Source: Octopus vulgaris
Lineage: Eukaryota
Direction of reading: 5' to 3'
DNA: 64,000 bases
Assembly (NCBI GenBank): GCA_951406725.2
Contig: OX597816.1
Span: forward strand, 141,794,001-141,858,000
Of the stretch, positions 5,175-47,558 are shown in pieces. A program made the position numbers and the translations under genes. Position 1 is the stretch's first letter; every line of letters begins with the position of its first letter. The notes under the pieces were generated by a model. The model was not told the DNA's origin. It ran no database searches and worked only from the letters and a program-made list of their open reading frames with translations.

Positions 5175-5334
5175 GAATGCATCTTTACACTATTTACATT
5201 TGACAGATATTTGTCCACATCCTGTTTGTTGTTAACACGTTTCGGCTGATATACCCTCCAGCCTTCATCAGGTGTCTTGGGGAAATTTCGAACCTGGGTT
5301 CTCATTCCTAAGGTATTTTTCGATGTTGTTGTTG

Positions 5335-5373
<39 letters not shown>

Positions 5374-5501
5374 TCACTGCTTGTAATCGAACTTGGAATC
5401 TTGGGGTTAGTAGCCTGTGCTCTTAAGCACTACGCCATATGTCCATCAAATGTAAATAATGTTAATAATGTACATAATTCCTCATCTCTTAAATATAGAA
5501 C
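5175..5501 (-). mobile_element. tRNA-headed short element carrying a hammerhead-like core and an inverted terminal duplication
   Basis: Minus strand reads TGGCGTAGTGCTTAAG (A-box-like), GTTCGATT (B-box-like), (AAT)n, then CTGATGA-A-GGCTG/CAGCC-GAAAC. 5191-5203 is inverted at 5446-5458. Confidence 0.6.
5234..5276 (-). ncRNA. Minimal hammerhead-ribozyme-like motif (helix III incomplete in this copy)
   Basis: GACAC-CTGATGA-A-GGCTG-gagggtatat-CAGCC-GAAA-C-GTGTT: intact CUGAUGA and GAAA boxes, 5-bp helix II, helix I GACAC/GTGTT. Confidence 0.55.
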
Positions 5502-5556
5502 TTACCACCCATATTATTTGTGTGTGTGTGTGTGTGTATGTATATATATAAATATA

Positions 5557-5820
5557 GGAGTGGCAGTGTGGTAAAAAGCTTCCACATGGTTCTGGGTTCA
5601 GTCCCACTGCATGGCACCTTGGGCAAGTGTCTTCTACTACAGCCTCAGCCTGACCAAAACCTTGTGAGTGGATTTGGTAGACGGAAACTGAAAGAAGCCT
5701 ATCAGATATACATATATATATTTACAAAGAATAAGTCCTGGAGTCGATTTGTTCAACTAAATGTGGTGCTCCAGCATGCTACTGTCAAATGACTGAAACA
5801 ATGCAAAGAATAGAAGAATA
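5557..5820 (+). mobile_element. Dominant SINE copy, internally deleted
   Basis: ggcagtgtggtaaaa...gggttcagtcccactgcatggcaccttgggcaagtgtcttc...gactgaaaca. Confidence 0.85.
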
Positions 5821-5825
5821 CTCAC

Positions 5826-5858
<33 letters not shown>

Positions 5859-6111
5859 TACATACTTGAATATATATATATACATAAATTGATAGATATA
5901 ATGTTTGTTTATTATCTGCTGATGTATAGCAGCAAAGGATGCAACACTGGCAAGAAACTGATGACAAACCCCTGTCCCATGCACCGTGAAATTCAAGTGA
6001 ACCACTGAAGGGGTGTGGTCTATTTGAAAGACTGCAACCAATGATGCTATTATTCACAAACTGCGATACCAAAAACAATAAATACATCTTTTTTTACCTA
6101 AACATATTTGT

Positions 6112-6342
6112 TATTTCTTTACTGCCCACAAGGAGCTAAACACAGAGGGGACAAACAAGGACAGACAAACGGATTAAGTCGATTATATCGACTCCAGTGC
6201 ATAACTGGTACTTATCTAATCGACCCCGAAAGGATGAAAGGTAAAGTCGACCTCGGCAGAATTTGAACTCAGAACGTAGCGGCAGATGAAATACCACTAA
6301 GCATTTCGCCCGGTGTGCTAACGTTTCTGCCAACTCGCCACC
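6112..6342 (-). mobile_element. Second SINE family with ~19-bp target-site duplication
   Basis: TSD tttacctaaacatatttgt at 6093-6111 and 6343-6361. Head is GGTGGCGAGTTGGCAGAAACGTTAG...GAGTTCAAATTC. A plus-strand copy lies at 45181-45416. Confidence 0.85.
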
Positions 6343-6393
6343 TTTACCTAAACATATTTGTATGCTTACACACACACACACATGCATGCATGT

Positions 6394-6695
6394 GAGGGCA
6401 CATGGTTTAGTGGTTAGGGTATTGCACTCATAATTGCTAGATCATGATATCAATTCCTAGACTGCGTGGAGCATTGTGTCCCTGAGCAAAACACTTCATC
6501 TCACGTTGCTCTGTGATCACTTTGACACCTGATGTGTGGTAACACCAAGCACCTGTTTAGACAATGTTGATTTGATGGAGACAGTGAGCTAATGTGTGGT
6601 ATGAACATTTGATCACTATAAACAAATCATTTGTGCAGCTTGTTCAGCAAAAGCTGCACACTCAAATGTCATCTTTGACGGGAAAGTCCATCATG
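6394..6695 (+). mobile_element. tRNA-derived SINE (third family)
   Basis: Head gagggcacatggtttagtggttaggg...tcaattcctag; similar heads at 12511, 12660 and 58358. Confidence 0.7.
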
Positions 6696-7021
6696 TATGT
6701 TCATATATAAATTTGTAATGTAATACATGGATTCATAGCTATCAGAGAAAGCTCCTCTAGTGGACCCAGCTAGCTTTCTTTATATTCAGTGCTTTGTAAA
6801 TACACAGTTGTATATATCTTATAATATGTAGCATGCATATTAGTGCAGACATGTAAAAGAATTTATTATACACAGAAATTATTATTAAATGATGAACACA
6901 GAGACATAGCCATAATCTTAGGATTATGGTCATTTCTCAGACTTCATCATGTAATAATAATTTCAATGGTTAAATAAATATATTCACAAGTTTAAAAAAA
7001 TATACACAAGTATTTTATGGT

Positions 7022-7254
7022 GTGTGTGTGTATATGTATGTATGTATATATATATATGTGTGTGTGTGTGTGTCAATTCATGCATGTATATATATATATT
7101 TACATACATACATACACACATACAGTATGTACATATTTATACATAATTTTCAATATGTATATATATATGTATGTATATATACATATATGTATATAGATAT
7201 ATATATGCATGTGTATATATATATATGTATATATTTATGTATATATATGTATGT

Positions 7255-7294
<40 letters not shown>

Positions 7295-7762
7295 ATGTAT
7301 GTATACATATATGAATGTGCATGTGTGTATACACACAAATGTGCAAATATACATACACTCCCTTGCATGCGCACACACACACATTCTTTCATTTCTTTAC
7401 TGGTTTTAGTCATTGAACTGTGGCCATGCTGGGTCACAGCTTCAGGGGTTTTATAGTCAATCATAGTGTCGCCAGTATATATATATATTTCAGTCTGATA
7501 CTTTCTTTATTCTATAATTTTTACCCATTAACTAAGTTTAAAATTTTCACTCAACACTAGATCTGTGCTAACTGACACTATTGTATTGAACAGATAAATT
7601 CAAACAGACAAACACATATTAAAAACACTCAGTTCCACACACACATACAAACACACAAGCACACATATTGTTCAATCTATGTCAGTAGGGAAGACTGACA
7701 TAAAATAATGATCATTAGGATACATATATATTTACACATATATACAAACATACATACATACA

Positions 7763-7811
<49 letters not shown>

Positions 7812-8010
7812 CATATATACATACACGCAAGCATACATATATATATGCATATATATACATACATACATACATTCACACACACACACATATATATATACAT
7901 ATATATTATATATTAGATATATATGTACACACATATTTATTGGCATTGTTTTACGATTGATTTCTTAATGCTTGCATGGATCAGAGGAAGGCCAGATGCT
8001 TTTCCTGTGT

Positions 8011-8049
<39 letters not shown>

Positions 8050-8094
8050 TATGGAAGGAACTATATATATATATATTAGTCACACAGGAAAAAC

Positions 8095-8131
<37 letters not shown>

Positions 8132-8225
8132 CACATATATGTTATCAATATATATATGTGCATGTATATATGTGTGCATTTGTTTGTGTTTGTGTTTGTG
8201 TGTGTGTGTGTACTTGTGTATGTAT
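7022..8225. repeat. Compound (TA)n/(TG)n/(TATG)n low-complexity tracts
   Basis: Visible dinucleotide arrays; they give rise to the many Y/I/V/C/M-rich spurious ORFs. Confidence 0.95.
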
Positions 8226-8644
8226 CATTCATTCATTCTTATAACAACCACTTTTCCATGCTACAAAGAGTTTGACACGAATTTTTTGAGGTTATATTCT
8301 ATGGCCAGATACCTTTCTTGACAAGAACCCTTGCCAGGTTTTCAAATAAGGAACATGTAATTTCTCTTGTCATTGAATGTACAGAGTGATTGGCTTTAGA
8401 ATCAACATACATTAAAAACATATCAACTTTGCAGGTAGAGTGGAGTACCCCTTGTACAAGTGTGTGGATATATCTGACTTCTGCAGTAAAAGTGTTAACA
8501 ATAATGATTCAGTTGTAAATGTGACTGTAAAGTTAAAAAGGTCGCTTCACAACCATACAGATTTGGGTCTGATTCCACTGTGTAGCACCTTGGACAAATG
8601 CCTTGTGAATGAAATGTAGTACATGAAAACAGAATCCTGTTATA

Positions 8645-9340
8645 TATTTTATTTTGAGGTTTCTTGCCAATAGAGAAAGGGCTGGTTTCTAATCTAGATC
8701 CAAGACTCCTTCATTGGAATTTTACCAACATCAACAGGATAGTTTCGTATGTATGTATGTATGTATGTATGTATGTATGTATGTGTGTGTGTGTGTGTGT
8801 ATGTATGTATGCATGCATGTATGTATGTATGTTTGTATGTATGTATGCATACATGCATGTATGTATGTATGTATGCATGCATGCATGTATGTATGTATGC
8901 ATGTATGTATGTTTGTATGTGTGTATGTATGTATGTATATATGTATGTATGTATGCATATAGTTGCATGTCTAGAAATACTCATATATACTTAAATGATA
9001 AACTTCTGGAAAGTTTTACAGATTTTTACAGTTCCAGTGATGGCTTAGATCTGTAGTCTTCAAATCAGCTTTCTCCTTGGTTTTGAGAAGCCTAATTTCT
9101 CAAGATTGCTATTTAGGATCTGTGTTGCATATCCCAGTGCCCCAATAATTACACCTATAAACCTGAAATTGTAATTTGGATAGAGTAACTGTAGATTTCT
9201 CAATAGTTCAGCATAGGTATTTTCTCTTTCATTGATCTTTATCTTTATGTTATCATCCACTGGGCAGCTGATTTCTACAACTGTAAACAGTTTCTTTTCT
9301 CTATCCCAGATCACATATCAGGTCTCTTATGCTTACATTT
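8645..9340 (-). mobile_element. 3' fragment of an R4/Dong-type non-LTR retrotransposon (restriction-like endonuclease), interrupted by (TATG)n
   Basis: KHKRPDM followed by ORF 9060-9314 IWDREKKLFTVVEISCP...Y.EL...VIIGALG, the RPD...E PD-(D/E)xK RLE signature. Confidence 0.75.
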
Positions 9341-10948
9341 TCTGATGGATCTCATTATACACTGTCTTAGCAACAACATCCATGTCTTCATTGGTAGATA
9401 ATACCATATTTTTGGACAACTGCTTACGATGTGGGTGATATCTTCAGCGTTAGCTCCACAAAGTCTGTATCGGTTATCACATATTGCTGTTTGTTTGTTT
9501 GTTTATTTGTATGTATGTATTTATGCATGTATGTGTGTGTGTGTGTGTATGTGTGTTGTGCATACATTTGTACCTATGTATCGCTGCATCACACATGTGG
9601 TGATAATGCTTATGGCTTACAGGGATGAAAAGTCAAGCAGCTCATATGAAGTCAATCAATAAAGTATCTTACTTAAAAAACAAAAGGTTGTTGTCAAGAA
9701 GGGCATCTATAATATTGCCTGAGTCTCATTTAACCCATATCAGCATGGAAAAAGCAGAAATAAAAACGATGATGATGATGATGATGATGAAGGTGAGGAG
9801 GAGGAGGAATGGATTTCCAATATAAGCCCAGTTAGATTTGTGAGGGAAAGACAGTTGATCAAATCTACTCCTGAAGTTGACAGGTACTTCTTTTATTATT
9901 GTAGACTGTGTAAAACGAAGATGACCCTGTTGGGATTTGAACTCTGACCATAAAGAGACAATAATATAAGTACACACACACACACACAGACACAGCAGAA
10001 AGTAAAGCTGAATAGAGAAAATTTCTTTATTAAATGTGATATCAATATATCAAGATGTATGCTCCGATATTTATATCTACCTGATATCTCCAAGGTTCTT
10101 GTTAATAAACAGGTGGCTTTTATCCAATCTGACAAGATCTAAGATGGATAGCTTGATTTCTGACTTAAATGAAATGTATGTATGTCTCTCTCTATCACTA
10201 ATTTATCTCCAGAATTTAATTTTAGCCAGAAGATAACTTTTCACCTTCCATGACACATTATTCGTGGTGTTGTAATTAGTCATTAGTCACATTATCTAAA
10301 GGCTTTCAAGACATGAAAAGGCTGTCTTACTGCCCCCACACCCATCTGTGTTCACATGATGAAGATAAATAATAACGAGTACATACATAATAATATTCCA
10401 CCTACTGCACACTTCCATTGTCTCATGAAATATTCAGCCAGTTAATTGTTGTCAGTAATTTGATAATGCTGTGTACTTGTAGGAAATTTTCTGACATTAA
10501 GTGATAATATGTTGGGAGTTAGAAAATATGATTAAATAATCTGCTTTCCATTTGAGCTTCTCACCTTCATCTGCCTTTTAAGCTAAATCTGCACTATCTC
10601 CAACTTATGCAAGAGGAGGTATTTTTGCAGTCTCTCTTTTATACCATTCTGCCTGAGTTCATTTAATCTCAACAATATTTCATTTGATATCTAAAATGCT
10701 TATCTTAAAAATCATGCATGATATATATACATATATATACATACATAAATGTGTGTGTGTGTAAATAAATGCTTATATATATAAGGTGCAAGTGTAGGTG
10801 TGTAATAAGTTTGCCTCCAAACCACATGGTTCCCAGTTCAATCCCACTGCATGCCACCTAGTGTAAGTGTTTTCTGCTATAACCCTGGGCCAACCAAAGC
10901 CTTTTGAGAGGATTTGGTGGACTGAAACTGAAAGTAGCCCCCATTATA

Positions 10949-12263
10949 TCAGGTAATCCCATAATTTCTGTCCGATTTTACCATTTTTAAAAATTGAATG
11001 AAATTTAATAGTATTTTAGAATGTCTAATGGAATTAAAAATTATTTTTAAGCATTTGTGTACATTTAAACTAATTAAATATTATTTTACAGAGTAATAGA
11101 ATTGAAATTTCTTTGATTAAATCCCTTTCTAACATGGAAGTATCCAAAAAGCATTTGAGTCACATAATGCTTTATGAGTACAAAAAAGGAAACTCTGCAG
11201 CTGAAGTGACTCAAAACATACACTCAGTTTATGGGAATGAATGCTTGAATGAAAGAACTTGCAGAAGATGGTTTGCAAAATTCAGAAGTGGAGATTTCAG
11301 CCTGATGATGATAAAGATTGAACAGGACATCCAGTTGAGTTTGATGATAAACTCCTTGAGGCATTACTTGAAGAAAATTGAAATTTAATCATCATTGTAC
11401 TTTCCCTGATTATCAGTTGAAGAATTGGCAATAAAGCTTAGTTCAAAACCATACAACTGTTCATCGTCATCTTCAACAACTTGGAATGGTTCTTAAACTT
11501 GGAAAATGGGTGCCTCATGAATTGTCTGAAAGCAACTGTAAATCCTGAGTTGACATCTGCTCTTCTCTCCATTCTCACAAACTCATTTCACCCTTTTTGG
11601 ATAGACTTGTGACTGGTGATGAAAAATGGATCTTCTATAGAAATGTTAAACGTTGTAAACAGTGGCTTGGTAAAAGGGAAAAAGCTCTGCCACAACCGAG
11701 AAGGGAACTTCATGGGAAAAAGTTTCTTCTCTCTATCTGGTGGGATTGCAAAGAAGAAATTCACCTTGAATTGTTACCACCTAATGCAAAAATCAATGCT
11801 CAAGTCTACTGTCAGCAATTAGAGCATTTGAACTAAGCTTTGAAGAAAAAAGACCCACTTTAGTGAGTCAAAAGGGAGTGATGTTTTATCAGGACAATGC
11901 ATGACACCACACTGTAAAGATCACATCACAGAAAGTTGAAGAGCTTGGTTGAGAAAAAATTCCTCATCCACCTTATTTTCCCGACCTTGCTCCTTCAGAC
12001 TACCATTTGCTTCGTAGATTACAGAATCATTTCAGGGACATAACTTTTGCAAGCCAGGAGGAGGTTGAAACTGACATTTCAGAGTTTTTCGCTTTGAAAC
12101 CAAAAGAGTTTTACATCGATGGGATTAAAAAGTTTGTAAATAGATGGAAGGAAGTCATAGATAATCAGGGAAAGTACATTGATGATTAAATTTCAATTAA
12201 ATATAACGTTTGATCACTTGTTTTCTTTATTCAAAATTCGGGCAGAACTTATAGGATGACCTG

Positions 12264-12264
<1 letters not shown>
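10949..12264 (+). mobile_element. Full-length (~1.3 kb) inactive mariner (Tc1/mariner DD34D) transposon
   Basis: ~30-bp TIRs tcaggtaatcccataatttctgtccgattt / aattcgggcagaacttataggatgacctga. TA at 10947-10948 on the left, TG on the right. Inserted at the end of a SINE segment. Confidence 0.92.
11134..12189 (+). pseudogene. Mariner transposase pseudogene (frameshifts and stops)
   Basis: Motifs: HTH ERTCRRWFAKFRSGDFSL, WVPHEL (~11508), TGDEKW, QDNA, HPPYFPDLAPSDYHL, RWKEVIDNQGKYIDD. Split over ORFs 11113-11388, 11597-11836 and 12007-12189. Confidence 0.92.
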
Positions 12265-12309
<45 letters not shown>

Positions 12310-13949
12310 ACGCGTGTGTGTTACTGTCACCTTGCCTTGACACTCTTGTAAACAAGTGTTCGCATAATGCAAGTGGTATCCTTTATTTCCAATATTCTGT
12401 GAAAATAAGTCTGGTCATGTGGAAACGTGTGAGGGCTAGCAACAGGAAGGGCATTTGGCTGTAAAATATCTTCTCAACAAATTCATTCCATCCAACCCAA
12501 GCAAGCATAGGGAGAGCACATGGCCTAATGGTTAGGGAGTTGCACTCATGATCACAAGATCATGGTTTCAGTTCTTGAACCTGGAGGTTTGTTGTGTTCT
12601 TGAACATTATACTTCATTTCACACAGTTTCATTCCACTCAGCTGTAAATGAGTAACCAGTGGAGGCACGTGGCTTAGTGGTTAGTGTGATGGGCTCGTGA
12701 TTGTAAGATTGCAGTTTCAATTCCAATTGTCTCTTGTGGCATGGTTTCTTTGGCTAAATGCCCTTCCTAATGCCAATCGCTTTGGAGTGTCTGCAGGGTG
12801 CATTTTAAATGGCTTGCAATAAGGATAAAAAATTGAAGAGATAGACTGAAAACACAGTATATTACTGGTACTTATTTTATCAACCCCACCCACAAGAGAT
12901 CAGAACTGAGAATGTAATGTGGCATGACTAAATAATATCACACAACTCAAACAGCACATGTTCTACATGATCACCTCACAATAAAACTTACACAATGTAT
13001 TTCCAATGCAACAGAAAAGCAAAACAAAAACACTGCATACAGAACTGCACTGGGTTGTACTGTAAAAGCGTGCAATAAAAATACTACAAGTGAAACAACA
13101 ACAGTAGCAGCAGCAGCAGAGTGCAAGTCAGATCAATACCAGACGAATTCAAACCAAAACAAAGCATGATAGACAATACAAATGGAAAGTATAATGTTCG
13201 CCATTGGTTAAAAAGGAAAATGTGTACTTTGAATTTGATGTAGAAAATCTTTTAGAAAATGGAGTATGAAACCTTTTGTATTGTCAGAAATGAATAAATT
13301 GTTACCTGATAAAAAAGTAGATGATAATCTAAATAAAGAGCTGGACTTTATTCCGCAATAAAATAATAAATGGACCCAAGAGACTTACATTTCCATAGTA
13401 CATGTACATTTTACCAATATACTATCCAAAAAAAAACGAGATTTCCCCAACACATGCATGTATAGTATCTGGGGAAAAAATAACTCTAGTCTAAAACTTT
13501 GGATTCCAACATTCTAAGATACATATTTAAAAATAAAAGCTAAAACATAGAACATAAAAGCAGAAAACTTTGAAGAAAGAATGCATAATGATAATACAAA
13601 TAACAAAAATATAATACATTAACGCTAACAACACAGAGTACATAAATCACGAATTCAGATCTAGTAGAAAACAAATGAAAGAAACAATAAAACACAGCAA
13701 AGTCAAAACTATAGCACACTTACAGAATACTAACGAAAGTTGAACCAAAACTACAACTGATGGAAATATAAACATAAGCAAATGTGAGAAAGAATTAAGA
13801 GTTGTAAGCTCTACATCAGTAAATTTTGAAATATGACAATAATCAAAAGGTGGAAATAGTTAAAGAAATAAATAAACGAATCTTCTTAAGGACCAATGAA
13901 AGAATAGATAAACATAAGACCTGCTGATAAAACAACAATGGGACAGAAA

Positions 13950-15360: not shown

Positions 15361-15376
15361 AAGAACAGTAACAACA

Positions 15377-15411
<35 letters not shown>

Positions 15412-15487
15412 CATTCTTGTACATATATATATATATATATTTACATTCTTGTACATATATATATATATATATATATATTTACATTCA

Positions 15488-15793: not shown

Positions 15794-15885
<92 letters not shown>

Positions 15886-15891
<6 letters not shown>

Positions 15892-17319
15892 TAGTAAAAA
15901 GTGAAAAAACTACAGAAGGCTTGTTTTAAAAGGTTAAAAAATATATATTTGAGTCAATATGTCTGAAGAATATTATAAATTTTTTTATTACAATGACATA
16001 GTTTAGAAGAAAGACCGGTTTCGCGTTTAGCTTTTCAAATTTATTACGTCGTTATGTTTATGTTGAGAAGAGTTATCGTTATGTTTATGTTGAAAAGAGT
16101 TCTAGATAAGGGGAGGTAATAAGTGATTTCTTCCGGTGTAAGGGAGATAATCGCTTTAAATTTTTTGCCTTTCTCTTGGTGTGAATTTCTCTGTATAAGT
16201 ATGTTGGAATGGTTAAGTCTGGGCTTGTACTTTTCAATGAAGAATGTTTCCTTGTTTAGTCTCATTTGTGTTGATGATCCGATAGCACATTGGTAAAATG
16301 GAAAGATTAAAAATTGTGGTAGTAGTTGCTTTGCGCATTTCTCAATGTGCTCACTAAAAGGTATCATTCTGTATTCTGGGAATGCAATCTGTTGTCGATG
16401 CAGTGTGCATCTACGTCTGAGTGATAGTCCCGTGGAGCCCACGTAGTCTTGGTGGCAGCCCGAGCATTTTATGACATAAATTATGTTTCCAGAGGCACAA
16501 GTAAAATTAGATTTGATCTTGAATTTCTGTCCCTCTTTGAAGAGGAATTCTGATCCTTCTAGCAGGTTCGGACATGTTGCACAGTTTGATCTACCACATT
16601 TTTTTACTTTTGCATCTGTGATTTCAGAAAACAATTTTGCCTTTGTGAGAATCGTTTTAAGTGATTTAGGTTGTTTTGTAGCTTTTAATGATTTGGTGTA
16701 TGTTTAGAATTTCCTTTAATTTGGGGTCCTTATGAAGTATTGGTAAATTCTGGGTGATGATGGTGAAGGCTTCTTTGTTTCTGGGGTTGTATGTAGATAT
16801 GTAAGGTAGTATTTTTGGGGAAGGTGTGTTGTTATGTTGAACTTTTCTTAAAGTTTCTATGTTGATTTCTGTTGCACGTCTGATCCCATCCTCTATGAGT
16901 TGAGCTGGGTAATGTCTGTCAATTAGGGTGTTTTTGAGTTCTTGCAGTCTAAAGTTCCTGGTATTTTGTTCTGACACTATTGTGCATATCCTTCTTGCAA
17001 GGTTGAAGGGGATGTTTGTTTTAGTGTGTCTTGGGTGGCATGAATTAAAAAGAAGGTATTGTTTGGCGTCTGTGGCTTTGTAAAAAATGTCTGTTTCTAT
17101 TTTAAGGTTAATTTTTTTAATTAGTATATCCAAGAATGGGAGCACCTTTTGGTTGTATTCCATTGTGAACTGTATATTTGGGTTTATGCTGTTCAATAGG
17201 TTTTTAAATTTTAGGAGTTTATCTGTGTTTTCATTCCAGAGTATAAAACAATCGTCCAGGAATCATTTCCAATTCTCTTTTATGTATTGAGAGAGGGGGT
17301 TTCCAAAGATTGATAAAGA
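15886..17319 (-). mobile_element. Penelope-like element (Neptune-type), 5'-truncated, left arm of palindrome
   Basis: RT C-terminus (WK*FLDDC...NSINPNIQFTME...LPFLD...SCHP), Cys linker CGRSNCATC, GIY-YIG domain (NIIYVIKC...YVGST...R...E...LN). Carries a stop before FLDD and a +1 frameshift at ~16675. Confidence 0.93.
16007..16045 (-). ncRNA. Minimal hammerhead-like motif in the PLE 3' region (left arm)
   Basis: TTGAAAA-GC-taaac-GC-GAAA-CCGG-TC; helix I is weak in this copy. Confidence 0.5.
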
Positions 17320-17350
17320 TTCCTCTTTATCAATCTTTATCAATTCCTCT

Positions 17351-18782
17351 TCTTTATCAATCTTTGGAAACCCCCTCTCTCAATACATAAAAGAGAATTG
17401 GAAACGATTCCTGGACAATTGTTTTATACTCTGGAATGAAAACACAGATAAACTCCTAAAATTTAAAAACCTATTGAACAGCATAAACCCAAATATACAG
17501 TTCACAATGGAATACAACCAAAAGGAGCTCCCATTCTTGGATATACTAATTAAAAAAATTAACCTTAAAATAGAAACAGACATTTTTTACAAAGCCACAG
17601 ACGTCAAACAATACCCTCTTTTTAATTCATGCCACCCAAGACACACTAAAACAAACATTCCCTTCAACCTTGCAAGAAGGATATGCACAATAGTGTCAGA
17701 ACAAAATACCAGGAACTTTAGACTGCAAGAACTCAAAAACACCCTAATTGACAGACATTACCCAGCTCAACTCATAGAGGATGGGATCAGACGTGCAACA
17801 GAAATCAACATAGAAACTTTAAGAAAAGTTCAACACAACAACACACCTTCCCCGAAAATACTACCTTACATATCTACACACAACCCCAGAAACAAAGAAG
17901 CCTTCACCATCATCACCCAGAATTTACCAATACTTCATAAGGACCCCAAATTAAAGGAAATTCTAAACATACACCAAATCATTAAAAGCTACAAACAACC
18001 TAAATCACTAAAAAAGATTCTCACAAAGGCAAAATTGTTTTCTGAAATTACGGATGCAAAAGTAAAAAAATGTGGTAGATCAAACTGTGCAACATGTCCA
18101 AACCTGCTAGAAGGATCAGAATTCCTCTTCAAAAGGGACAGAAATTCAAGATCAAATCTAATTTTACTTGTGCCTCTGAAAACATAATTTATGTCATAAA
18201 ATGCTCGGGCTGCCACCAAGACTACGTGGGCTCCACGGGACTATCACTCAGACGTAGATGCACACTGCATCGACAACAGATTGCATTCCCAGAATATAGA
18301 ATGATACCTTTTAGTGAGCACATTGAGAAATGCGCAAAGCAACTACTACCACAATTTTTAATCTTTCCATTTTACCAATGTGCTATCGGATCATCAACAC
18401 AAATGAGACTGAACAAGGAAACATTCTTCATTGAAAAGTACAAGCCCAGACTTAACCATTCCAACATACTTATACAGAGAAATTCACACCAAGGGAAAGG
18501 CAAAAAATTTAAAGCGATTATCTCCCTTACACTGGAAGAAATCACTTATTACCTTCCCTTATCTAGAACTCTTTTCAACATAAACATAACGATAACTCTT
18601 CTCAACATAAACATAACGATGTAGGAAATTTGAAAAGCTAAACGCGAAACCGGTCTTTCTTCTAAACTATGTCATTGTAATAAAAAAATTTATAATATTC
18701 TTCAGACATATTGACTCAAATATATATTTTTTAACCTTTTAAAACAAGCCTTCTGTAGTTTTTTCACTTTTTACTATTTTCT
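17351..18782 (+). mobile_element. Penelope-like element (Neptune-type), 5'-truncated, right arm of palindrome
   Basis: Reverse complement of the left arm. Open from 17351 (SLSIFG...WKRFLDNC...), with a -1 frameshift at ~18131, GIY-YIG domain in ORF 18094-18624 and stop at 18624. Confidence 0.93.
18623..18661 (+). ncRNA. Minimal hammerhead-like motif in the PLE 3' region (right arm)
   Basis: AGGAAA-t-TTGAAAA-GC-taaac-GC-GAAA-CCGG-TC-TTTCTT: U3-A8 core, 2-bp helix II, palindromic ACCGGT helix III, GUC site. Confidence 0.55.
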
Positions 18783-18821
18783 ATATATTCAACCACGTGC
18801 TTTCACAAACCAACTTTCTTA

Positions 18822-18867
<46 letters not shown>

Positions 18868-18882
18868 AGAATATAGTATTGA

Positions 18883-18925
18883 CAGTGACTTTGAAGTTTT
18901 AGCCTGCTTGACCTTTATCAGACTG
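18883..18925 (-). ncRNA. Decayed type I hammerhead-like motif inside a hairpin (18873-18953)
   Basis: CAGT-CTGATAA-A-GGTC-aagca-GGCT-AAAA-CTTCAAAG-TC-ACTG: all three helices are present, with G8>A and G12>A core changes. Confidence 0.55.
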
Positions 18926-19977
18926 AGACTTCAAAGTCACTGTAAAATACTATTCTTTTTTTAAAAGTTATACTTCAGTTCTATGTAAAATTGTTTTTAT
19001 TATAACTCAAAGTAAAAACAAGCGTTAGAATAAGAATATATATATAATAACAGAAATTACTAAAAAGAACCAAATTAAAAATGAGGCAATGAAATGTCAT
19101 GCCAACTTGTTGACAAGAAAAGCCCACTCTGTGGATGGTACTTGACAAAAACAAGCAAAGAGGTAGACAAAGAAATTACTCAGCACTTAGTGAAAAACCA
19201 GGACTCAAAGCTCTGAGACCAAAGGACTTTTGAGAGGTTTTTCTTTTAAAATATTAGAATTCATCTCTCCACTTAACACACAAACTTATCTCCATTTACA
19301 AACTTCTGCTAATGCAATTAATTACTAATTACATAGGACTTTTATACTCTGCAATTTACTGACTTGCACAAGCAGAGAGATGTAGAAAATTCACAGAAAT
19401 ATTATTGTCTCATAATCTACTTATCAGTTCAAATAGTTAATAATGTATTTCTGAAAGAAAAAGAAAAACTAACAAAATATAAAAGCATCAAGACAAGAAT
19501 TGTCATCATCATCATCATCATTATCATTTTAACATCCACTTTTCCATGCCTACATAGGTCAGATGGAATTTATGTTGAGGTGGATTTTCTACAGCCAGAT
19601 GCCCTTCCTGTCACCAACCCTCATCTGTTTTGAAGTAAGGTCACATTTCTCCATGACCAGACATGTTTTCACAGAAGATTGGAAATGAAGGACATCACTT
19701 ACATGATGGAAACATTTGTTTACAACTATCACACCATGCTAAGGCAAGGAGCCAGTAACACACAAATACACATCCATCCATCTATCTATCCGTATGTATG
19801 TACATACATACATATGTATGTATATATGTACCCCCTCCCCTGAAATTACTGGTCTTGTGCCAAAATTTGAAACTAATAATAATAATAGTAAAATAATAAT
19901 AATAATAATAATAATAATTAATTCTGGTTTACTGGCCACAATAGCTAACATAAATCCAAAAAACATGTAAGGACAAA

Positions 19978-20012
<35 letters not shown>

Positions 20013-21839: not shown

Positions 21840-21885
<46 letters not shown>

Positions 21886-28915: not shown

Positions 28916-29554
28916 CAAGCTTTCTTTCATTTTATCTCAAAGATAGTTTAATTATGGGAAGTTGTGTACTGAAGCCAAAGCCAATTATTTTTCTTAGAAA
29001 CAAGCAAGCATAGCTAGAATATCACTTTTGATCCCTTACATGTATACATTAATGACTTCTAACACTGGCATTAAGGCCTGACTTTATAATGTAAAGTGGA
29101 TTATATAAAAACTCTACCTGGTTAAGACACTAGTCCTATCACGGATAAGCTTATCAAATTAACTGGTATCTATTTCCTACCACAGCTGGGGTGAACTGAG
29201 TTAATGTGCAATAAAGTGTCCTACTCAAAAACATAACAAAACACCATCACCGGATTTGAACTCATGTTCCATGATCAAGTAGTTTTATACCTTATTTACT
29301 TGACAGGCATGGCTGTGTGGGTAAGAAGTTTGCTTCTCAACTGCATGGTCTCATGAATACTATGAACTACACTGTAATCATCCCTGGAATAGGGACAGTG
29401 ATCTTAAGAGACATGTGATGTGTGGAAATGCATGTAGCAATGCATCTTGGACCAAGTTTCTTCTACTATAGCCTCGGGCAGACCAAAGCCCTGTGAGTTG
29501 ATTTAGTAGATGGAAACTGAAAGAAGCCTATCACATATATGTATATATACATAC

Positions 29555-29862
29555 ATAGTAATAATAATAATCCTTGGATGGAATTCATAAACATTTAATG
29601 CATCACTACACACGTTTCCATAAATCACATGTCTCTTAAGATCACAGTCCGTATTACAGTGTAGTCTGTAGTATCCAAGGGTATCAGGTTGATCATCTTC
29701 ATGATTTCATTTCTTCAGACAATGACCATCTTCATGAATACTATGGGCTACACTGTAATCATCTCAGGAATAAGGACAGTGATCTTAAGAGACATGTGAT
29801 TTGTGGAAATGCGTATGGCAATGCATTAAATTCCATCCGAGGATTATTGCTATTATTACTAT
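29555..29862. repeat. ~120-bp-arm imperfect inverted repeat, with a third copy at 29351-29445
   Basis: aaatcacatgtctcttaagatcac (left arm) versus gtgatcttaagagacatgtgattt (right arm); termini atagtaataata / tattattactat. Confidence 0.85.
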
Positions 29863-30000
29863 ATTTACCCTATATTATATCAGTACAGCTTGATACAACC
29901 CCAAAAAACTGGTTCACTAGTCAGCATCATTAGATGGTGACCAGCATAATGGAATAGGAGCTTCATTTGCATTTTCAAAAGGTTTCCCGTAAACAAATTT

Positions 30001-30808: not shown

Positions 30809-30843
<35 letters not shown>

Positions 30844-38150: not shown

Positions 38151-38159
38151 TGACTTATA

Positions 38160-38206
<47 letters not shown>

Positions 38207-38356
38207 CAGGATTCTTTCAGTTTCTGTCTATGAAATCCACTTACAAGGCTATAGTAGAAAACACTCACCCAAGGTGCCACAAAGTGGAACTGAACCCAGA
38301 ACTGTGTGTTTGGAAAGCAGACTTCTTACAACACAGCTACACCTGTGCCTACGAAC

Positions 38357-38663
38357 TTCTTTGGTTACTATTTTACTCCGATGGACCACCATTGCTACTT
38401 GAAGTTTAGATACTAATTTTATAGATACTTCATTAACTTCTCACAAAATTTCATGCATTCACTCGTGTAAGATGAACTATGTAAAACATTAGAGAAAGAA
38501 ACCAAGCTGGCTTTTGCAATAAATACATCTAAAGCGAAATCTTTCCATGGGTTCTTAATATATTACTGTGGATCCCTAATTTACAACTTTGCTTTTGTGG
38601 ACCTCACCATAAAATCTTATATAGGCCTCCAGGGGTCATATGGACCCTGATTGAGAACCACTG
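38357..38663. mobile_element. Second copy of the hAT-type element, left end lost
   Basis: Colinear with 2650-2959; ends in gattgagaaccactg. Confidence 0.7.
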
Positions 38664-40047: not shown

Positions 40048-40260
40048 TCTTTTACTCTTTTACTTGTTTCAGTCATTTGACTGTGGCTATGCTGGAGCAC
40101 CATCTTTAGTCGAGCAAATCAAGCCCAGGATTTATTCTTCGTAAGCCTAGTACTTATTCTATTGGTCACTTTTGCCGAACTGCTAAGTTACGGGGACGTA
40201 AACACACCAGCATCGGTTGTCAAGCGATGTTGGGGGGAACAAACACAGACACACAAACAT

Positions 40261-40301
<41 letters not shown>

Positions 40302-40472
40302 CACACACACATATACGACAGGCTTTTTTCAGTTTCCATCTACCAAATCCACTCACAAGGCTTTGGTCGGCCCGAGGCTATAGTAGAAGACACTTGCCCA
40401 AGGTGCCACACAGTGGGACTGAACCCAGAACCATGCGGTTCATAAGCAAACTACTTACCACACAGCCACTCC
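40048..40472 (-). mobile_element. Dominant SINE, best-preserved copy
   Basis: Full module order with CpGs retained (gtcgagc, ttgccgaac, ttggtcggcccgagg). Other copies at ~4690, 10785, 22715, 25750, 29305, 37190, 38205, 39008, 47030, 47778, 48280, 52180 and 59685. Confidence 0.9.
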
Positions 40473-40700
40473 TAAACCTATAATACTGGTATCATGAAAA
40501 AGGTACCAAGAACACTATAAATTAGTTGGCATTAGGAAGGAAGGGCATCCAGCCATAAAAATCCATAACAAATCTAAGACATCAGAGCACAATGTGTAGT
40601 CATGTAACATTTTGGATCCTATCAAACTGTTCAACTTATGTCAGTATGGAAGGTGGATGTAAAATAATGATGATAATATATATACATGCATACATATAAT

Positions 40701-40765
<65 letters not shown>

Positions 40766-40887
40766 TAAAAAGTTAATCCAAACATGAAAACACAAAGAGA
40801 AAACAGAACAATGCGAGGACGTGGAACAAATATAGTATTATTGGACACTCAGGAAGGAAGGGAAGAAGGAGGGTTTTACGTTTCGAG

Positions 40888-40947
<60 letters not shown>

Positions 40948-40982
40948 CATCAAGAGTTACGGAATGGAGTAGGTAAGATCCA

Positions 40983-41066
40983 GGCTACATATGTTTCGTA
41001 GTGAATAGAACCTCAGAAGTGGAAAATATCCAGGTAAGGTGTATACCACAGGCTACTATTCAGGCC
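40983..41066 (-). ncRNA. Type I hammerhead-like motif with long helix II insert and palindromic helix III
   Basis: GGC-CTGAATA-GTAG-(~50 nt)-CTAC-GAAA-CATATG-TA-GCC; single core deviation G8>U. Confidence 0.65.
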
Positions 41067-41131
41067 AAAGATATCTTTGCTGCAAGGAGGTACATCTTAA
41101 TGCATGGAAGATTCAATCAGAATAAGCTTAT

Positions 41132-41164
<33 letters not shown>

Positions 41165-42367
41165 GGAGAGAGTAAAACACTAAAGTGCTCAATACACATT
41201 CTAGAGAATCTTGTAGAATGTTTTGTACATATGTTTTGTATATGTTGTTAGTTCCATACCATGACCTCATGCTGATGTACAGTTATTTGGAAACAGCAAT
41301 ATTCAGCAGAATCTTGGAATAATGAAGAGAACGAAAAGACAAGTTAATTTTCTCTCTGACATCTAGAAATGAAGAGATCAGACTGAATACAATAATTACT
41401 CTACAAATTATAATTAGCAAACTAGAACCATTGTGCAGATGACTTGTAGGATGATTCCTAAGAACATTTTGAAGAGAACAAAAAGTCATGTTGATCTTAA
41501 AGACAGTTGTTTTCAGTTATCTCGACTACTGCTATGAACTATAGTCTCTACAGTATCAAGTTCACTAATGACCTGGAGGCAATCTAACAGACATGCATGA
41601 AGAATATTGATACTATGCAACAGCTGTACTGCTGTAATAGGTTGAAAGAATTAAGATTATTCTCTAGAGTAATGAAGAGAAAGATATGAATCAAGTTATA
41701 GTTCTTGGAAAGATTGGAAGAAAAGTAGAATTAAAAGTTGTGAAACAGCTCAAACTTTTGTTCTCACCTTCACAAGCTAAAACTAGGTTCTGCAATAACT
41801 TAAGTTTCAAAGAACCAAAGTGCTGTAATACCACCAACCCACGTAAGTATAAGTGATCTGTATATAGTTAAATATCGGTTTCAAATTTTGGCACAAACTC
41901 AACAATTTCATGGGAGGGGTAAGTCAATAAGCCAGGAGAGGGTAAGTTGATTATATTGACCATCTGAAAGACTGACAGACAAAGTCGACCCGGGTGGCAT
42001 TCGAAATCAGAACATAAAGTAGGAAGAAATGCTGTTAGCATTTTGTTCAGCTTGCTGCCTTATATAGTAAATATTGACATGCAGTATTCTTTCTTCAAAC
42101 TATTATATTATGAGTCATTTGATATTCTTTTTTGTGATCCTGATGGAAAACTAGTGTCTTCTTGTGTTCTTAATTTTATACCTCTATGTCAGAAATAGAG
42201 TGCAATCAAAACATACAAACTGCCAATGCTCTTGTCTTCCTGATGTTAAAGCTCTTATCTCCAAGTTTTTGCCTTTTGAAATATTATTTCTAGTAAAAGC
42301 ATCTAGCTTGGCCTGATCTCATAACTGTGCTTCAGGTAATATGAGTTTACCAAATACCAAACTAACT

Positions 42368-42511
42368 TTAACCCTTTAGCATCTAAACCAGCTATATCTG
42401 GCCCTAATATTCTACTTGTAATCTCAAAGCTATGAGCTAATGCACAATTAATTTAAAGCAATGTGAATAAATAAGCATTACATTTGAATAATATAAATGT
42501 TAAAGAGTTAA
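42368..42511. mobile_element. piggyBac-type MITE copy
   Basis: TTAA-CCCTTTAGCAT...TGTTAAAGAG-TTAA; internally similar to 2115-2342. Confidence 0.6.
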
Positions 42512-45180
42512 GTGAAAAAACGCCACATTTACAGCAGCTGGTCATCAATGAGAACCTATAATAAAGTGAATGGTATAGCATCAGCAGTTGACTGTCCATC
42601 CAACAAGTTAATGTAAAAAGTAAAGGACTCAGAACACACCAATAAGGTAGTGAATGAAGTGTGTTCAGTGAGTAAAGGTTTTTTATTTAATCAGATAATC
42701 CATTTTGAGACTTGATGTGTGATGTTTGTGTACCAGCACCACTACCTTAGATATGTCAGCAATACACTAATATAAGTTCAGTTGAGCTTTATAGAAAGTC
42801 TGCAACTAATCTAGATTGAAATATTTTCAAGTCCTGAAGATAAAATGAAGACTTTGAGATGCAACTTTGATATGTAGATATGAAAGCTCATCAAAGATTG
42901 CAAAGTATAGCCTTAGTAAAAGTTGTGGAGCTTCTAATTACTGATGAGTAGAGAGTGTGTAATGTTATAGGTGTACACCTTGATATATATGGTGACAGTG
43001 TTTTGGTGTTGTTAACAGAGACCATGTTAATAGTATCCTCATTTGAGAATGATGTGTGGTGATGTGTGCAACATTATTATGGAATGAAAGAATGTATTAT
43101 CTGCATATGAATGTGTTCTACTGGAGAAACCATTAAATGGGTCATTGATGCAGAGAAAGGAAAGCAAAAGATATAAATGAATACAGAAGCAAACTAAAAG
43201 ATACCTCACTACTATCAGCTTCTTTTTGTTAATGAGAGTGTCAGTAAATTAATCATATTTGTTATATCTAACTTGGGGTATATCCTATGGGACAATAAAA
43301 GATTTTCCAAGATTTGGCACTGGCTGACAATAAAAATGGCAGTATGACTGTTTCTATGAGCAGACTGTATTAACAAAAAGAATTAGATCTTACCAATACT
43401 AAAAAGAAATACCCACTTTATTACAGTTTCATCTTTATTATTCTTCAGAGGTGTGTCATGCAGGTATCCACAAAACAGCAAGCTTGACTTAATTAAATAG
43501 AACAATTCTGTAAATCATCTTACCAGTTAGATATTTCAACACCTGAAACATTCTGACAAGAGTCTGTCTTTGACTGGTACTCTTGCTTTCCCTAGTTCAT
43601 TAAAAAAGAGTATTTAGAGGATGTCAAAATTATAATTCAGTGAACAGCCTTTGTTTAGGATGTCTGGCATAATGTCATTGAAACTCTCAGTTCAGTATTT
43701 CAGACTCTATCTTTCAGACTGTGTCTTTGCAGTCAATATGGAGAAAAGACATCAAGATCCAAATACACTATGTTGTAATAAAATTGTCTCAAATAATGAG
43801 TGTAAACTAGTTCATGTAGTTGATGAGCTCCTATCATTACTGGAAGTCTCTCATTTTATAAAGATGGTAAGAGTAAAGTCTTGAACATTTCTTGGTGAGT
43901 GTTATAGATGATCTGGAGCAACCTTGATGTTTACCCACATGAAAGATCAGAATCTCTGAAGAACATACAAACAACTTATCTATGAAAAGCTCTAAGACAA
44001 TTCAAATGTTCTTCTTGATATGGATCTGTGACATTAATTTTTTTCATTTTCAGGTAATATGGTATAGTATGCTTTAACTGTGTTTTATGAAGTATAATAG
44101 CTCATGGAGTTGCTTTAGAATTTCTGTTTTAGCGGGAGACTCATAGCTAGTCTGCTATGCAGTCAAGCTAAAATGTAGTATTTTGGTTCATGCAATAGGC
44201 TGATACATGCAGTATTCTTTCTTCAAACTATTATATTATGAGTCATGCTTTTTTTTTTTTTTTTGATGGCTAAGGAAGCAACCCTATTTTCAAGAACTCC
44301 AAGAGATTAGGGATAGAAATGGAAGAAGGCATGACTTATGAGTTGCTGCTGTGGGAAATAATACTTCAAAATACTGAGATAAACTCAGACAGTGACCAAG
44401 CTCGTAACAGAAAAAACCCACATAAAGGCCCAAAACATCTTCCATAGAATTTCTATTTACTCAATTTCACTTACAAGACTTGAATCAATCTGAGGTTGTA
44501 GTAAAAGGCACTTACCAGAGTGCCATACTGTAGGATTTAGCACAAACTACAAGATTATAAAGCATACTTTGTGACTATGTGACAATGCTAACACCCATTT
44601 GGATCTTATTGTATTTTAAATATTTCAGTAAGTCCCTCTGCTGAAGCAAGAAATAAGAGATCACTGCTGTCCTTTCTCCCAACCACCTTGTGTTAACCCA
44701 AGACATCTGATCTAAAGGAGTGAACATAAGTGACCCTTGCAAGAATTCTTTCCTATTTCTATCAGCAGATATAGAAGCTGTCCTTATTGGTTGTGACATC
44801 AAAGATTTTAAATTAAAAAAGCATTAAACATGGCATGCACATGTATGAGTGTAAAATGAAGTATTAAGTGCGGCATGCACAGTTATGAATGTAAAATGTG
44901 TAGAAACTCAACCCAACAAAGATACCAGCTTCTCCTTCTTGACAATTAATTGATACTCAAAAGCTAAGATATTTAATGTTGGACACACAATCTTCCTCAA
45001 GATTACTTCTATGTAGACATTTCTTTGTCTTTGAGCAACTTTGAGAAGAAATAAGTCACAGGAACATGATCAGATAGCTGTTTTGTTTTCAAACACACAT
45101 TCACACATACAAGTGTTACCCATCATATGACAGATAACTTTGGAAGTATAATTTGGCTACTATGAGTAATTACAGAACAT

Positions 45181-45416
45181 AAGGTGGCGAGTTGGCAGAA
45201 ATGTTAGCACGCCAGGCGAAATGCTTAGCGGTATTTCGTCTGCCGAAACGTTCTGAGTTCAAATTCCACCATGGTTGACTTTGCCTTTCATCCTTTCGGG
45301 GTCGATAAATTAAGCACCAGTTATGCACTGGAGTCGATGTAATTGACTTAATCCCTTTGTCTCTCCTTGTTTGTTCCCTCTATGTTTAGTCCCTTGTGGG
45401 CAATAAAGAAATAAGA
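45181..45416 (+). mobile_element. Second SINE family, plus-strand copy
   Basis: Reverse complement of 6112-6342 (aaggtggcgagttggcagaaatgttagcacgcc...gggcaataaagaaata). Confidence 0.85.
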
Positions 45417-47522
45417 AAATAATTTAACTGCTATCAAATTGCTTGGTGTTTGTACAAAATGATGAAATGAATACTAATTAAAAATTTATGTGTATGTGCA
45501 TGAATATGTGGGAATGTCTATATGCATATCTGTGTGAATGCATATTTGAATATATATGTGTCTGTGAGCATTTGTGTAAGCATGTTTATATATATTTTGT
45601 GCATTGATATTTATACACACAGATTTCTGAGTGTGTCATTCTCACTTTACATAATAAAACCATATTTCTCTGTTTACATTTGATACCAACATATTTACAG
45701 TTATGCTTATTCATCTTTATAAAATTTTATTTTATAGAGACAAATATAAAACATTGTTTTACATTTCAAACTGTTTAGATACCTTTTCAATTGATGATTC
45801 TTGTCTTTGTTACACAATTTTCATTGTTTTACAAATAACTTTTCATATATGATATGCTTTAATTTTTTTCCACAATTCTTTTATAAAAGACTGCTTCGTC
45901 TCCTCTGTCTATCTCTCAACCTATTGCTTTCTCCCACGCTTCCTCTCCCATTTTCTACTTTGTTTTATGCTTATTTCTACTACATTTTTTAATATTTTAT
46001 TACAGTTTGAACTGCTGTGCTTTCATTCCTCTCTCCTTTGTCATTTACTACCCCTCCTCTTCCTTCTCTTTTCCTTTGTCTATGCTATTCTCTCTCATTG
46101 CCTACCACCAAGCCAAGTATGTGCACTCATCCTACACTTCTTATATTAACTCTCTCTGTATCTCTCTTTTGCTTTCTCTCAACCTATCTCTGTACAATGT
46201 AAAGCATGACTGGAGAAATCAATCAACCACTTAACATTTATCTCAGTGATTGTGTGTGTGTGTGTGCATGCAAACATATGTATGCAAACAGAAACCAGCG
46301 CATGCCCACGCGCATGCACACACACAACAGCTTTGAAATAAGAACAGCTAATCCTGAAAACCTCTTTTGAAATCTGCTTCCCTAGTAAGTGAGAATTCCA
46401 TAAATCTATATATAAATATATTAAACTATGTATGTTTTATATGCATGCATGCATGTATGTATGTACATACGTATATACATATTGTGAAGATATAGTGTCA
46501 CCTCATTAATACATGTTCTATTACTCTTCAACTTGTTTTAAAATAATTTTATTTTCGCACACACATAAATTTAGAAGTCCTTTTAACATTTAGGTAATAT
46601 ATAACACTTTTATTTTCATTTGCTACAATTTTGCATTTATATCTTTTTAACTCACTTTGCTATTTTGTTGTGCATATCTTTTGGTAGCCATTATCAAGAG
46701 ACAAGAGTACATAGTACATTCCAGTACATTCCACAAGACTTTATGAATGACATGCCTAACAAAAAATTACCTTGAACTTTTAATTTTTAAAGCATGTGTG
46801 GTTCATTTAATGACGAGCCATGTGCCATGCAGTCCACTTTCCCTCCTTCCACTTGACTTCTAACTCACAATCAGAGAGGGAGGTAACATCATCAAAACCA
46901 AATTTCACAAGGTAGCCACTTGCAGAGATCTGCTCATCTACGGAAGATCAGCCCTCACTATCAGTGCTAAGGCTGGGTACATAGATAACAAACCATGCAA
47001 AAGAGACCTTAGATCACACTGTATATATCTTTTATATTTTGCTTGTTTCAGTCATTGGACTGTAACCATGTTGGGACACCACTTTAAAGGGTTTAGTCAA
47101 AGAAATCAACCCAGGTGTTTATTTTTTGCCAAACCAGTAAATCATGAGGACATAAACAAACAAACACCAGTTGTCAAATGGTGGTGGGTTACAAACATAC
47201 ACCCACACATATGTACATATATACAGACATATATATCACTGCATCAGTGTATTGGCCAGACTATCAGACAGTTGCTATACATGACTGGTCACAATAAGCT
47301 TCCTTACATTGTAACAGCTTTTAAATGAAGCCACCCCACTAGCTAGATAGGCAGGCCAGCATTCCCTATGAATGGAATGCCGGTCTGTCAGAGTTACCCA
47401 TTTACAACTGCATGGATATATAAATATATAGGGTGAGTTTACGAAAAAAAACAAAAGACAAAGACAGGTGGTGTACAAAACAAACAGATGTATTAGCATA
47501 ACGCTCAGGAATAGAAAAAAGT

Positions 47523-47558
47523 CTTTTATGTTTTGAACCTACGTTCTTCTACAGAAAG
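47523..47558 (-). ncRNA. Decayed minimal hammerhead-like motif
   Basis: CTTT-CTGTAGA-A-GAAC-gtag-GTTC-AAAA-CA-TA-AAAG: helices I and II are intact, core has 2-3 substitutions. Confidence 0.4.

What the first reader, a model, noticed from the sequence alone, without database searches (positions are those of the whole stretch)
5234..47558. Recurrent, sequence-unrelated hammerhead-like mini-elements: a possible Penelope-dependent non-autonomous retroelement system
At least five different short elements share the topology helixI-CUGANGA-(A)-helixII-GAAA-short palindrome-UH-helixI despite unrelated helix sequences. They lie at 5234-5276, 18883-18925, 40983-41066 and 47523-47558, with a half motif CTCGAAACGTA at 40877-40887 and a weak one at ~29903-29937. 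Most sit in or next to (TA)n tracts, and several have fold-back ends like the coding PLE at 15886-18782. All are on the minus strand (sense to the TMEM245 pre-mRNA) and all carry core lesions. That could reflect neutral decay or selection against self-cleavage of the host transcript; n is small.
Basis: partly seen in the sequence, partly recalled or inferred. Interest (0 to 1): 0.75.

Follow-up and report, generated by a model that had tools for sequence, protein, structure and literature searches.

The report
Penelope retrotransposon ends carrying hammerheads
The hammerhead-shaped motifs in this octopus intron are real, but four of the five are the short end-pieces of different protein-coding Penelope-type jumping genes, a known arrangement, and a wider sample of introns shows no preference for the gene's strand.

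Summary
The five main motifs are at the stated places, on the minus strand, inside the 57-kb first intron of TMEM245. Each belongs to a dispersed repeat family whose commonest form has a minimal type I hammerhead layout. Four of five families (5234, 40877, 40983, 47523) run on, in longer genomic copies, into Penelope-like reading frames (reverse transcriptase and/or GIY-YIG endonuclease). They are terminal repeats or 5'-truncated ends of coding elements, not a separate non-autonomous system. Family 18883 is old and has no partner found. The 29903 motif is not supported. The lesions have ordinary causes: truncation, private changes, CpG-type decay, and one family-wide variant (CUGUAGA; 0 of 58 copies have A6). 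In 777 kb of other oriented introns there were 16 sense and 26 antisense copies (p=0.16). Two oddities belong to family 5234: a tRNA-like A/B-box head just after its stop codon, and recurrent 2-5-nt deletions across the predicted cut site (11 of 92 copies). This scan had already noted both on other windows of this genome.

The parts
5183..5444 (-). Family A terminal repeat (pLTR): tRNA-like A/B-box head 5444-5369, (AAT)n/(AAC)n tract, hammerhead-bearing tail; solo copy of a coding Penelope/Poseidon-type element
5233..5276 (-). Family A minimal hammerhead motif; this copy lacks 3 nt across the predicted cut site
5440..5502 (+). Inverted copy of the family A 3' end (head-to-head insertion structure)
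15886..18822 (.). Family P: 5'-truncated coding Penelope-like element as a head-to-head inverted pair; CX4CxxC linker before the GIY-YIG domain; 40-nt optional tail at 18783-18822
18623..18660 (+).
16008..16045 (-). Same family P motif on the inverted arm
18866..18955 (-). Family B: old fold-back fragment with hammerhead motif (6-bp helix I, 10-nt palindromic helix III); two core G-to-A changes in this copy; coding partner not found
40767..40887 (-). Family H: terminal repeat of a coding element (CX4CxxC linker), 5'-truncated inside helix II, between (TA)n tracts
40950..41118 (-). Family C: 3' end of a coding element with Hydra-clade-type endonuclease motifs; long-loop hammerhead motif with a private G8 change
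47424..47609 (-). Family D: 3' end of a coding element (CX4CxxC linker); family-wide CUGUAGA core plus two CpG-type changes in this copy
47610..47723 (-). Fold-back piece of a different repeat (tRNA-like head in other copies) joined to family D at a short shared GATCG word
49715..50100 (.).
29570..29995 (.). Family G: old repeat with fold-back; the proposed 29903-29937 motif has no GAAA box in any of 6 copies
60835..61374 (-). TMEM245 coding exon 1 (context)
2986..3270 (-). TMEM245 coding exon 2 (context); intron 1 holds all the elements

Best explanation
Four of the five mini-elements are terminal repeats or 5'-truncated ends of separate protein-coding Penelope-like retrotransposon families, each carrying its own minimal hammerhead motif, and they were likely pasted into AT-rich or (TA)n DNA by their own family's reverse transcriptase-endonuclease and have since decayed without regard to the host gene's strand. 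Shown: family membership, collinearity with coding sequence in longer copies, head-to-head inversions, optional 30-40-nt tails, mixed orientation in other introns. Inferred from PMC11167929: copying starts inside the terminal repeat and usually stops early or at the RNA's 5' end, which would give the many ~200-nt copies with a sharp 5' boundary. Inferred: cleavage is not needed for spread, since family D reached thousands of copies with a non-canonical core.
For: D: 10 of 30 long copies have Penelope-protein hits upstream on the same strand, 9 collinear with shared DNA. H: 5 of 30 loci run on into a reading frame with RT motifs, 4 of them directly from the H repeat; 2 also end in a second H repeat. 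A: 10 of 92 matches (8 independent after removing a segmental duplication) have the endonuclease C-terminus directly upstream, with the same stop-codon-to-head junction in the 9 copies printed. C: 2 of 24 copies have an endonuclease C-terminus upstream. Majority sequences of A, H and C pass the zero-lesion descriptor; 65 of 92 A copies keep the strict core. Orientation 16:26 outside the window. Linker motifs fit target preference as described in PMC8557442: CX4CxxC (D, H, P) and CxCX5C/CxxC..CxH (E, C) families sit in (TA)n; A lacks the linker and does not. PMC4209133 already says most such motifs are single and probably truncated PLEs; PMC11167929 found core mutants do not affect insertion in vitro.
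Against: Family B has no coding partner in 23 other loci. Most copies of H and D are short with a sharp 5' end (24 of 30 H copies start right after a microsatellite), so short copies could also be transcribed and re-mobilised on their own. Many H loci are two repeats around an internally deleted 250-500-nt spacer, which resembles retrozyme dimers. No full-length family A copy was recovered. The orientation sample is small and leans antisense; gene intervals come from exon hits, not annotation. The five solo copies in this intron are all sense (chance 1 in 16, two-sided).
Confidence: 0.85

Rival explanations
1. The short copies are self-propagating non-autonomous elements (solo-repeat or retrozyme-like masters, and a tRNA-headed SINE for family A) mobilised in trans by Penelope proteins.
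For: Sharp 5' ends and thousands of candidates; 59 of 92 A matches have the tRNA-like head upstream and only 10 have coding sequence; H dimers with deleted interiors; trans-mobilisation by pLTRs is reported in PMC3846280; B has no partner.
Against: Head and hammerhead are integral to coding copies with a fixed junction. H dimer junctions differ from locus to locus, as one-off copying products would. No long tandem arrays of a unit were seen in the loci read. The two views can both hold in part.
Confidence: 0.15
2. Sense-strand intronic copies are purged or core-broken because self-cleavage would cut the host pre-mRNA.
For: All five solo window copies are sense and non-canonical; outside the window antisense copies outnumber sense 26 to 16 and keep the family core slightly more often (6 of 26 vs 2 of 16); intron depletion of retrozymes in Xenopus is reported (bioRxiv 10.64898/2026.07.22.740005).
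Against: Neither difference is significant (p=0.16, p=0.69). Only 1 of 42 copies is fully canonical on either strand. The window lesions are family-wide (D), truncation (H), CpG-type (B, D) or shared with many copies elsewhere (A). Single minimal hammerheads showed no cleavage in vitro (PMC4209133).
Confidence: 0.08
3. The motifs are chance look-alikes in AT-rich DNA.
For: With 2-3 lesions allowed the window count is within the shuffle range; true for the 29903 motif.
Against: Majority sequences of A, C and H meet the descriptor with no lesion and D with one, on one strand only; helices pair with different letters in each family; they lie where Penelope-like elements are known to carry them.
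Confidence: 0.02

Closest known systems
Minimal type I hammerheads in Penelope-like element pseudo-LTRs (Cervera and De la Pena 2014, PMC4209133; parts 1-2 of 4 read)
   Same: Short helix I, extra base before helix II, G10.1-C11.1 pair, palindromic stub of helix III, many unrelated families per genome, mostly single copies, and the U3-A8 core variant (family P here).
   Different: Octopus is not named in the parts read; the family-wide CUGUAGA core (D), the common CCGACGA form (9 of 30 H copies) and the tRNA-like head (A) are not described there.
Poseidon of Anolis carolinensis (Frangieh et al. 2024, PMC11167929; parts 1-2 of 4 read)
   Same: Two alternative 3' ends (optional tail), AT-rich targets, hammerhead in the terminal repeat; family H's frame appears to begin at the end of its repeat.
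   Different: No tRNA-like head reported; no reads or copies marking the cut site were found there, whereas family A copies show deletions across it.
Neptune and Hydra clades of EN+ PLEs (Craig et al. 2021, PMC8557442; passages and section 11 read)
   Same: CX2-5CxxC linker (D, H, P), CxCX5C linker and CxxC/CxH motifs (E; C shows the latter only), (TA)n insertion, inverted 5'-truncated copies.
   Different: Clade labels here rest on motifs only; no tree with named references was built. Supplements, which may list octopus families, were not read.
Animal non-LTR retrozymes (Li, Clavereau and Pollet 2026, bioRxiv 10.64898/2026.07.22.740005; parts 1-3 of 5 read)
   Same: Small hammerhead-bearing units related to pLTRs; the idea of Penelope-dependent non-autonomous elements is already in print.
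   Different: Retrozymes are defined there as tandem units with a hammerhead in consecutive repeats; the window's copies are solitary ends of coding elements.
Schistosoma SINE-like elements with Pol III promoter and hammerhead (review PMC6765202, passages read)
   Same: Pol III-type promoter followed by a hammerhead, as in family A.
   Different: Those are non-coding tandem repeats; family A's head-plus-hammerhead is the end repeat of a coding element.

Membership tests
EN+ Penelope-like element | Reading frame with PLE-type RT and C-terminal GIY-YIG endonuclease collinear with the repeat | tested here: met
   D and H: RT and endonuclease; A: endonuclease plus part of RT; C: endonuclease C-terminus only; P in the window. 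Reference hits P0121 and P0174 carry RVT_1 and GIY-YIG; the short A and D pieces themselves hit no Pfam family.
EN+ Penelope-like element | Same, for family B (18883) | tested here: inconclusive
   230-270 nt of shared upstream DNA in 3 loci, no reading frame or protein hit.
EN+ Penelope-like element | Direct terminal repeats flanking the frame | tested here: met
   H repeat on both sides of the frame in 2 loci; not recovered for A, C, D because the copies fetched are 5'-truncated.
EN+ Penelope-like element | Inverted 5'-truncated copy upstream and optional 30-40-nt tail | tested here: met
   58 of 92 A matches have an inverted segment upstream; tail present in about half of 25 P copies; two 3' ends in A, B, C.
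Type I minimal hammerhead | Core CUGANGA, GAAA, UH with helices I and II and palindromic stub | tested here: met
   Majority sequences of A, C, H with zero lesions.
Type I minimal hammerhead | Canonical core in families D, P and B | tested here: not met
   D has U at position 6 (0 of 58 scored copies have A); P has U3-A8 and a 2-bp helix II; B majority has G12 replaced (G in 6 of 23, sample biased towards the window copy).
Type I minimal hammerhead | Self-cleavage of RNA | not testable with these tools
   No assay; RNA reads showed no pile-up of ends.
Non-LTR retrozyme | Non-coding unit with no coding master | tested here: not met
   A, C, D, H are collinear with coding sequence; B unresolved.
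Non-LTR retrozyme | Tandem units with a hammerhead in consecutive repeats | tested here: inconclusive
   Window copies are solitary; some H loci hold two to three repeats with variable spacers.
Non-LTR retrozyme | Circular or discrete small RNA | not testable with these tools
   Only standard RNA-seq was laid.
tRNA-derived SINE (family A) | tRNA-related head with A and B boxes | tested here: inconclusive
   A-box and B-box-like words are visible (consensus recalled); no Rfam tRNA match and no ARAGORN gene in the window.
tRNA-derived SINE (family A) | Independent of a coding element | tested here: not met
   Head follows the stop codon of a coding element at a fixed junction.

The most novel reading that the evidence does not exclude
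Family A is a protein-coding Penelope element driven by a tRNA-type RNA polymerase III promoter in its terminal repeat, and the recurrent 2-5-nt deletions across its hammerhead cut site are scars of real self-cleavage in vivo, left when reverse transcriptase jumps the cut by 2-3 nt of shared letters. That would be genomic evidence that minimal Penelope hammerheads cut during transposition.
Probability: 0.3. Interest if true: 0.6.

Novelty: new member of a known kind. Interest (0 to 1): 0.25.

Why it matters
As stated, the finding is an ordinary picture of a genome rich in Penelope-like elements, and automated annotation that calls these short copies 'unclassified SINEs' may be mislabelling them (an inference; PMC13282606 lists 893 unclassified SINE families among recent insertions in Octopus vulgaris). 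What could matter is in the variants. The role of the hammerhead in Penelope elements is open. Family D spread with a non-canonical core, which suggests cleavage is dispensable, while family A shows deletions concentrated at the cut site, which suggests cleavage happens. Both can be tested cheaply in vitro.

Tried and rejected
Rfam scan of the window: no hammerhead family among the 150 matches listed of 170. My notebook labels D as Penelope/Poseidon and C/E as Neptune; the linker motifs correct this to Neptune-type for D, H, P and Hydra-type for C, E. ARAGORN at a lowered threshold gave only noise. No RNA holder listed by the run index. Raw RNA-seq of three runs (one study, organism B, not shown to be the window's species) laid on an A copy: deep cover of the repeat on both strands equally, almost none on the coding part, no pile-up of ends; the 3-nt deletion is in 408 of 4069, 339 of 3258 and 281 of 2997 reads, close to the genomic share, so it says nothing on cleavage. 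RNA cover of the intron itself was not obtained. Single-strand folding of majority motifs recovers helix II and mostly helix I but not the three-way junction, as expected for dimer-type motifs. Extending A copies upstream reached only unrelated flanks. Lunse et al. (PMC5785218) is not held and was not read. Searches that did not show a paper on a Pol III-driven coding PLE, cut-site deletions or a natural A6U hammerhead, judged from listings only. Repbase and the papers' supplements were not seen and may hold these families.
Full report
Setting. The window is G000:C3:141794001-141858000 of a 2.8-Gb genome. The frame at 61374-60835 is 96% identical to Octopus bimaculoides TMEM245, so the genome is an octopus. 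The next coding exon is at 3270-2986 and the gene continues over 100 kb further left. All named motifs lie in intron 1, sense to the gene.

Observation. The five main motifs read as described. A descriptor with one lesion allowed finds 2 sites (5271, 41063) against 0-1 in 12 shuffles; with two or three lesions the window is not above the shuffles (11 vs 4-11; 13 vs 4-16). The case therefore rests on families. First-look candidate counts were 2051 (A, 5234), 88 (B, 18883), 1628 (C, 40983), 3288 (H, 40877), 4037 (D, 47523) and 2851 (coding family P); these are not copy numbers. An exact 27-mer of A occurs 4509 times. Majority sequences of A, C and H meet the descriptor with no lesion, D with one, B with two, on one strand only; P, E and F fall outside it. 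The 29903 motif belongs to an old repeat in which no GAAA box follows in any of 6 copies. D and H are related (72% over about 80 nt).

What the lesions are. H is cut off inside helix II; other copies are whole. C has a private G8 change; 16 of 24 other copies have CTGAAGA. B is old (76-95% matches); CTGATGA is its commonest first box (5 of 23) and G12 survives in 6 of 23. D has U at position 6 throughout: 26 of 29 and 23 of 30 copies read CTGTAGA and none of 58 scored has A6; the window copy adds two CpG-type changes. A lacks 3 nt at the cut site; 77 of 92 matches picked without regard to the junction have the full 7-nt spacing, 4 were unscored, and 65 of 92 keep the strict core.

They are ends of coding elements. 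D: a search with upstream DNA gave 30 loci, 10 with Penelope-protein hits upstream on the same strand, 9 collinear, including YIDD and GIY-YIG motifs; these long copies also read CTGTAGA. H: 24 of 30 copies with an intact 5' end start right after a microsatellite, but one extension led to 30 loci of which 5 run into a frame with RT motifs, 4 directly from the H repeat, and 2 end in a second H repeat. C: 2 of 24 copies have an endonuclease C-terminus about 330 nt upstream. A: 10 of 92 matches, 8 independent, have an endonuclease C-terminus upstream, plus one inverted copy; the stop codon is followed after about 28 nt by the tRNA-like head at the same junction in the 9 copies printed, with short deletions in two. 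B: no frame found. By the motifs of PMC8557442, D, H and P have the Neptune-type CX4CxxC linker, E and C have Hydra-type motifs, and A has no linker; this matches (TA)n targeting for all but A. No tree was built. P carries the U3-A8 variant described in PMC4209133, with a perfect 7-bp helix I in a sister copy.

Orientation. I oriented 17 myosin gene intervals from exon hits (659 kb) and the rest of TMEM245, and searched them with family profiles. Outside the window, 42 non-redundant hits in 776,583 nt split 16 sense and 26 antisense (p=0.16); the family core with its palindrome was kept in 2 of 16 and 6 of 26 (p=0.69); 1 of 42 was fully canonical. Inside the window the split is 7 sense and 3 antisense. 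Limits: the intervals are not annotation, one 150-kb interval rests on two exon hits, paired arms are counted separately and two hits are duplicates.

How it likely works. A coding element is transcribed from its terminal repeat; its protein nicks AT-rich or (TA)n DNA and starts copying at one of two sites inside the repeat (shown for an anole element in PMC11167929; inferred here from the two alternative 3' ends). Copying usually stops early or at the RNA's 5' end and often restarts in inverted form (58 of 92 A matches) or jumps to another template (L157, the 47610 join, H dimers). The products are short, hammerhead-bearing, dead-on-arrival pieces that then decay. Cleavage seems not to be required, in line with the in vitro result of PMC11167929 and with family D.

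Two oddities in family A. First, the head has A-box and B-box-like words (consensus recalled), lies upstream in 59 of 92 matches and many copies fold back close to its first base, which suggests a transcription start there. Rfam and ARAGORN do not call it a tRNA. Second, 11 of 92 matches (10 independent) have 2-5-nt deletions across the predicted cut site, on 4 subfamily backgrounds that each also have intact members, and in one insertion only one arm is deleted. No other position in the flanks, which hold 31 other short-repeat opportunities, had more than 2. Each deletion is bounded by 2-3 shared letters. A jump across a cleaved RNA would give this, but so would slippage at the base of a folded junction, or recombination between subfamilies. 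RNA reads carry the 3-nt deletion at about 10% and show no ends at the site.

Prior knowledge. Minimal hammerheads in Penelope terminal repeats, mostly as single truncated copies, are described in PMC4209133; solo repeats and inverted structures in PMC3846280 (passages); the non-autonomous retrozyme idea in bioRxiv 10.64898/2026.07.22.740005. Earlier notes of this scan reached the same readings on other windows of this genome; they are leads, not support. Verdict: real motifs, known kind, the proposed system and strand selection not supported; interest 0.25.

Noticed in passing
L186-L215 (G000, family E): Another abundant hammerhead family (3202 first-look candidates) with an intact core and 7-bp helix II, at the 3' end of a Hydra-type coding element with a ~1.1-kb 3' region.
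   Followed up: partly
window 47610-47723; L003:1816-1885, L153:1047-1115, L154:3015-3090: A separate repeat with a tRNA-like head, (ATT)n tail and 12-nt direct repeats in one copy; here a piece of it is fused to family D at a GATCG word, a likely template switch.
   Followed up: partly
L416-L445: Family H often occurs as two or three repeats around a 250-500-nt spacer with variable junctions near the repeat's 5' end; possible raw material for retrozymes.
   Followed up: partly
L326-L355: 9 of 30 family H copies read CCGACGA (U4C), a subfamily-level core variant.
   Followed up: partly
L273:2300-6600: Near full-length sister of family P (89% identical) as a head-to-head pair in a myosin intron, with a perfect 7-bp helix I.
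   Followed up: partly
window 3271-60834 and G000:C3:141696964-141796985: TMEM245 has two very long first introns (57.5 kb and about 100 kb).
   Followed up: partly
window 11074-11388: Mariner (Mos1-type) transposase HTH fragment (Pfam HTH_48).
   Followed up: no
L359-L362 (G000:C1 7.9-9.1 Mb): A head-to-head pair of coding family A copies is segmentally duplicated at least twice.
   Followed up: partly
window 29350-29995: Old fold-back repeat (family G) with a second partial copy at 29351-29445; no hammerhead resolved on either strand.
   Followed up: partly
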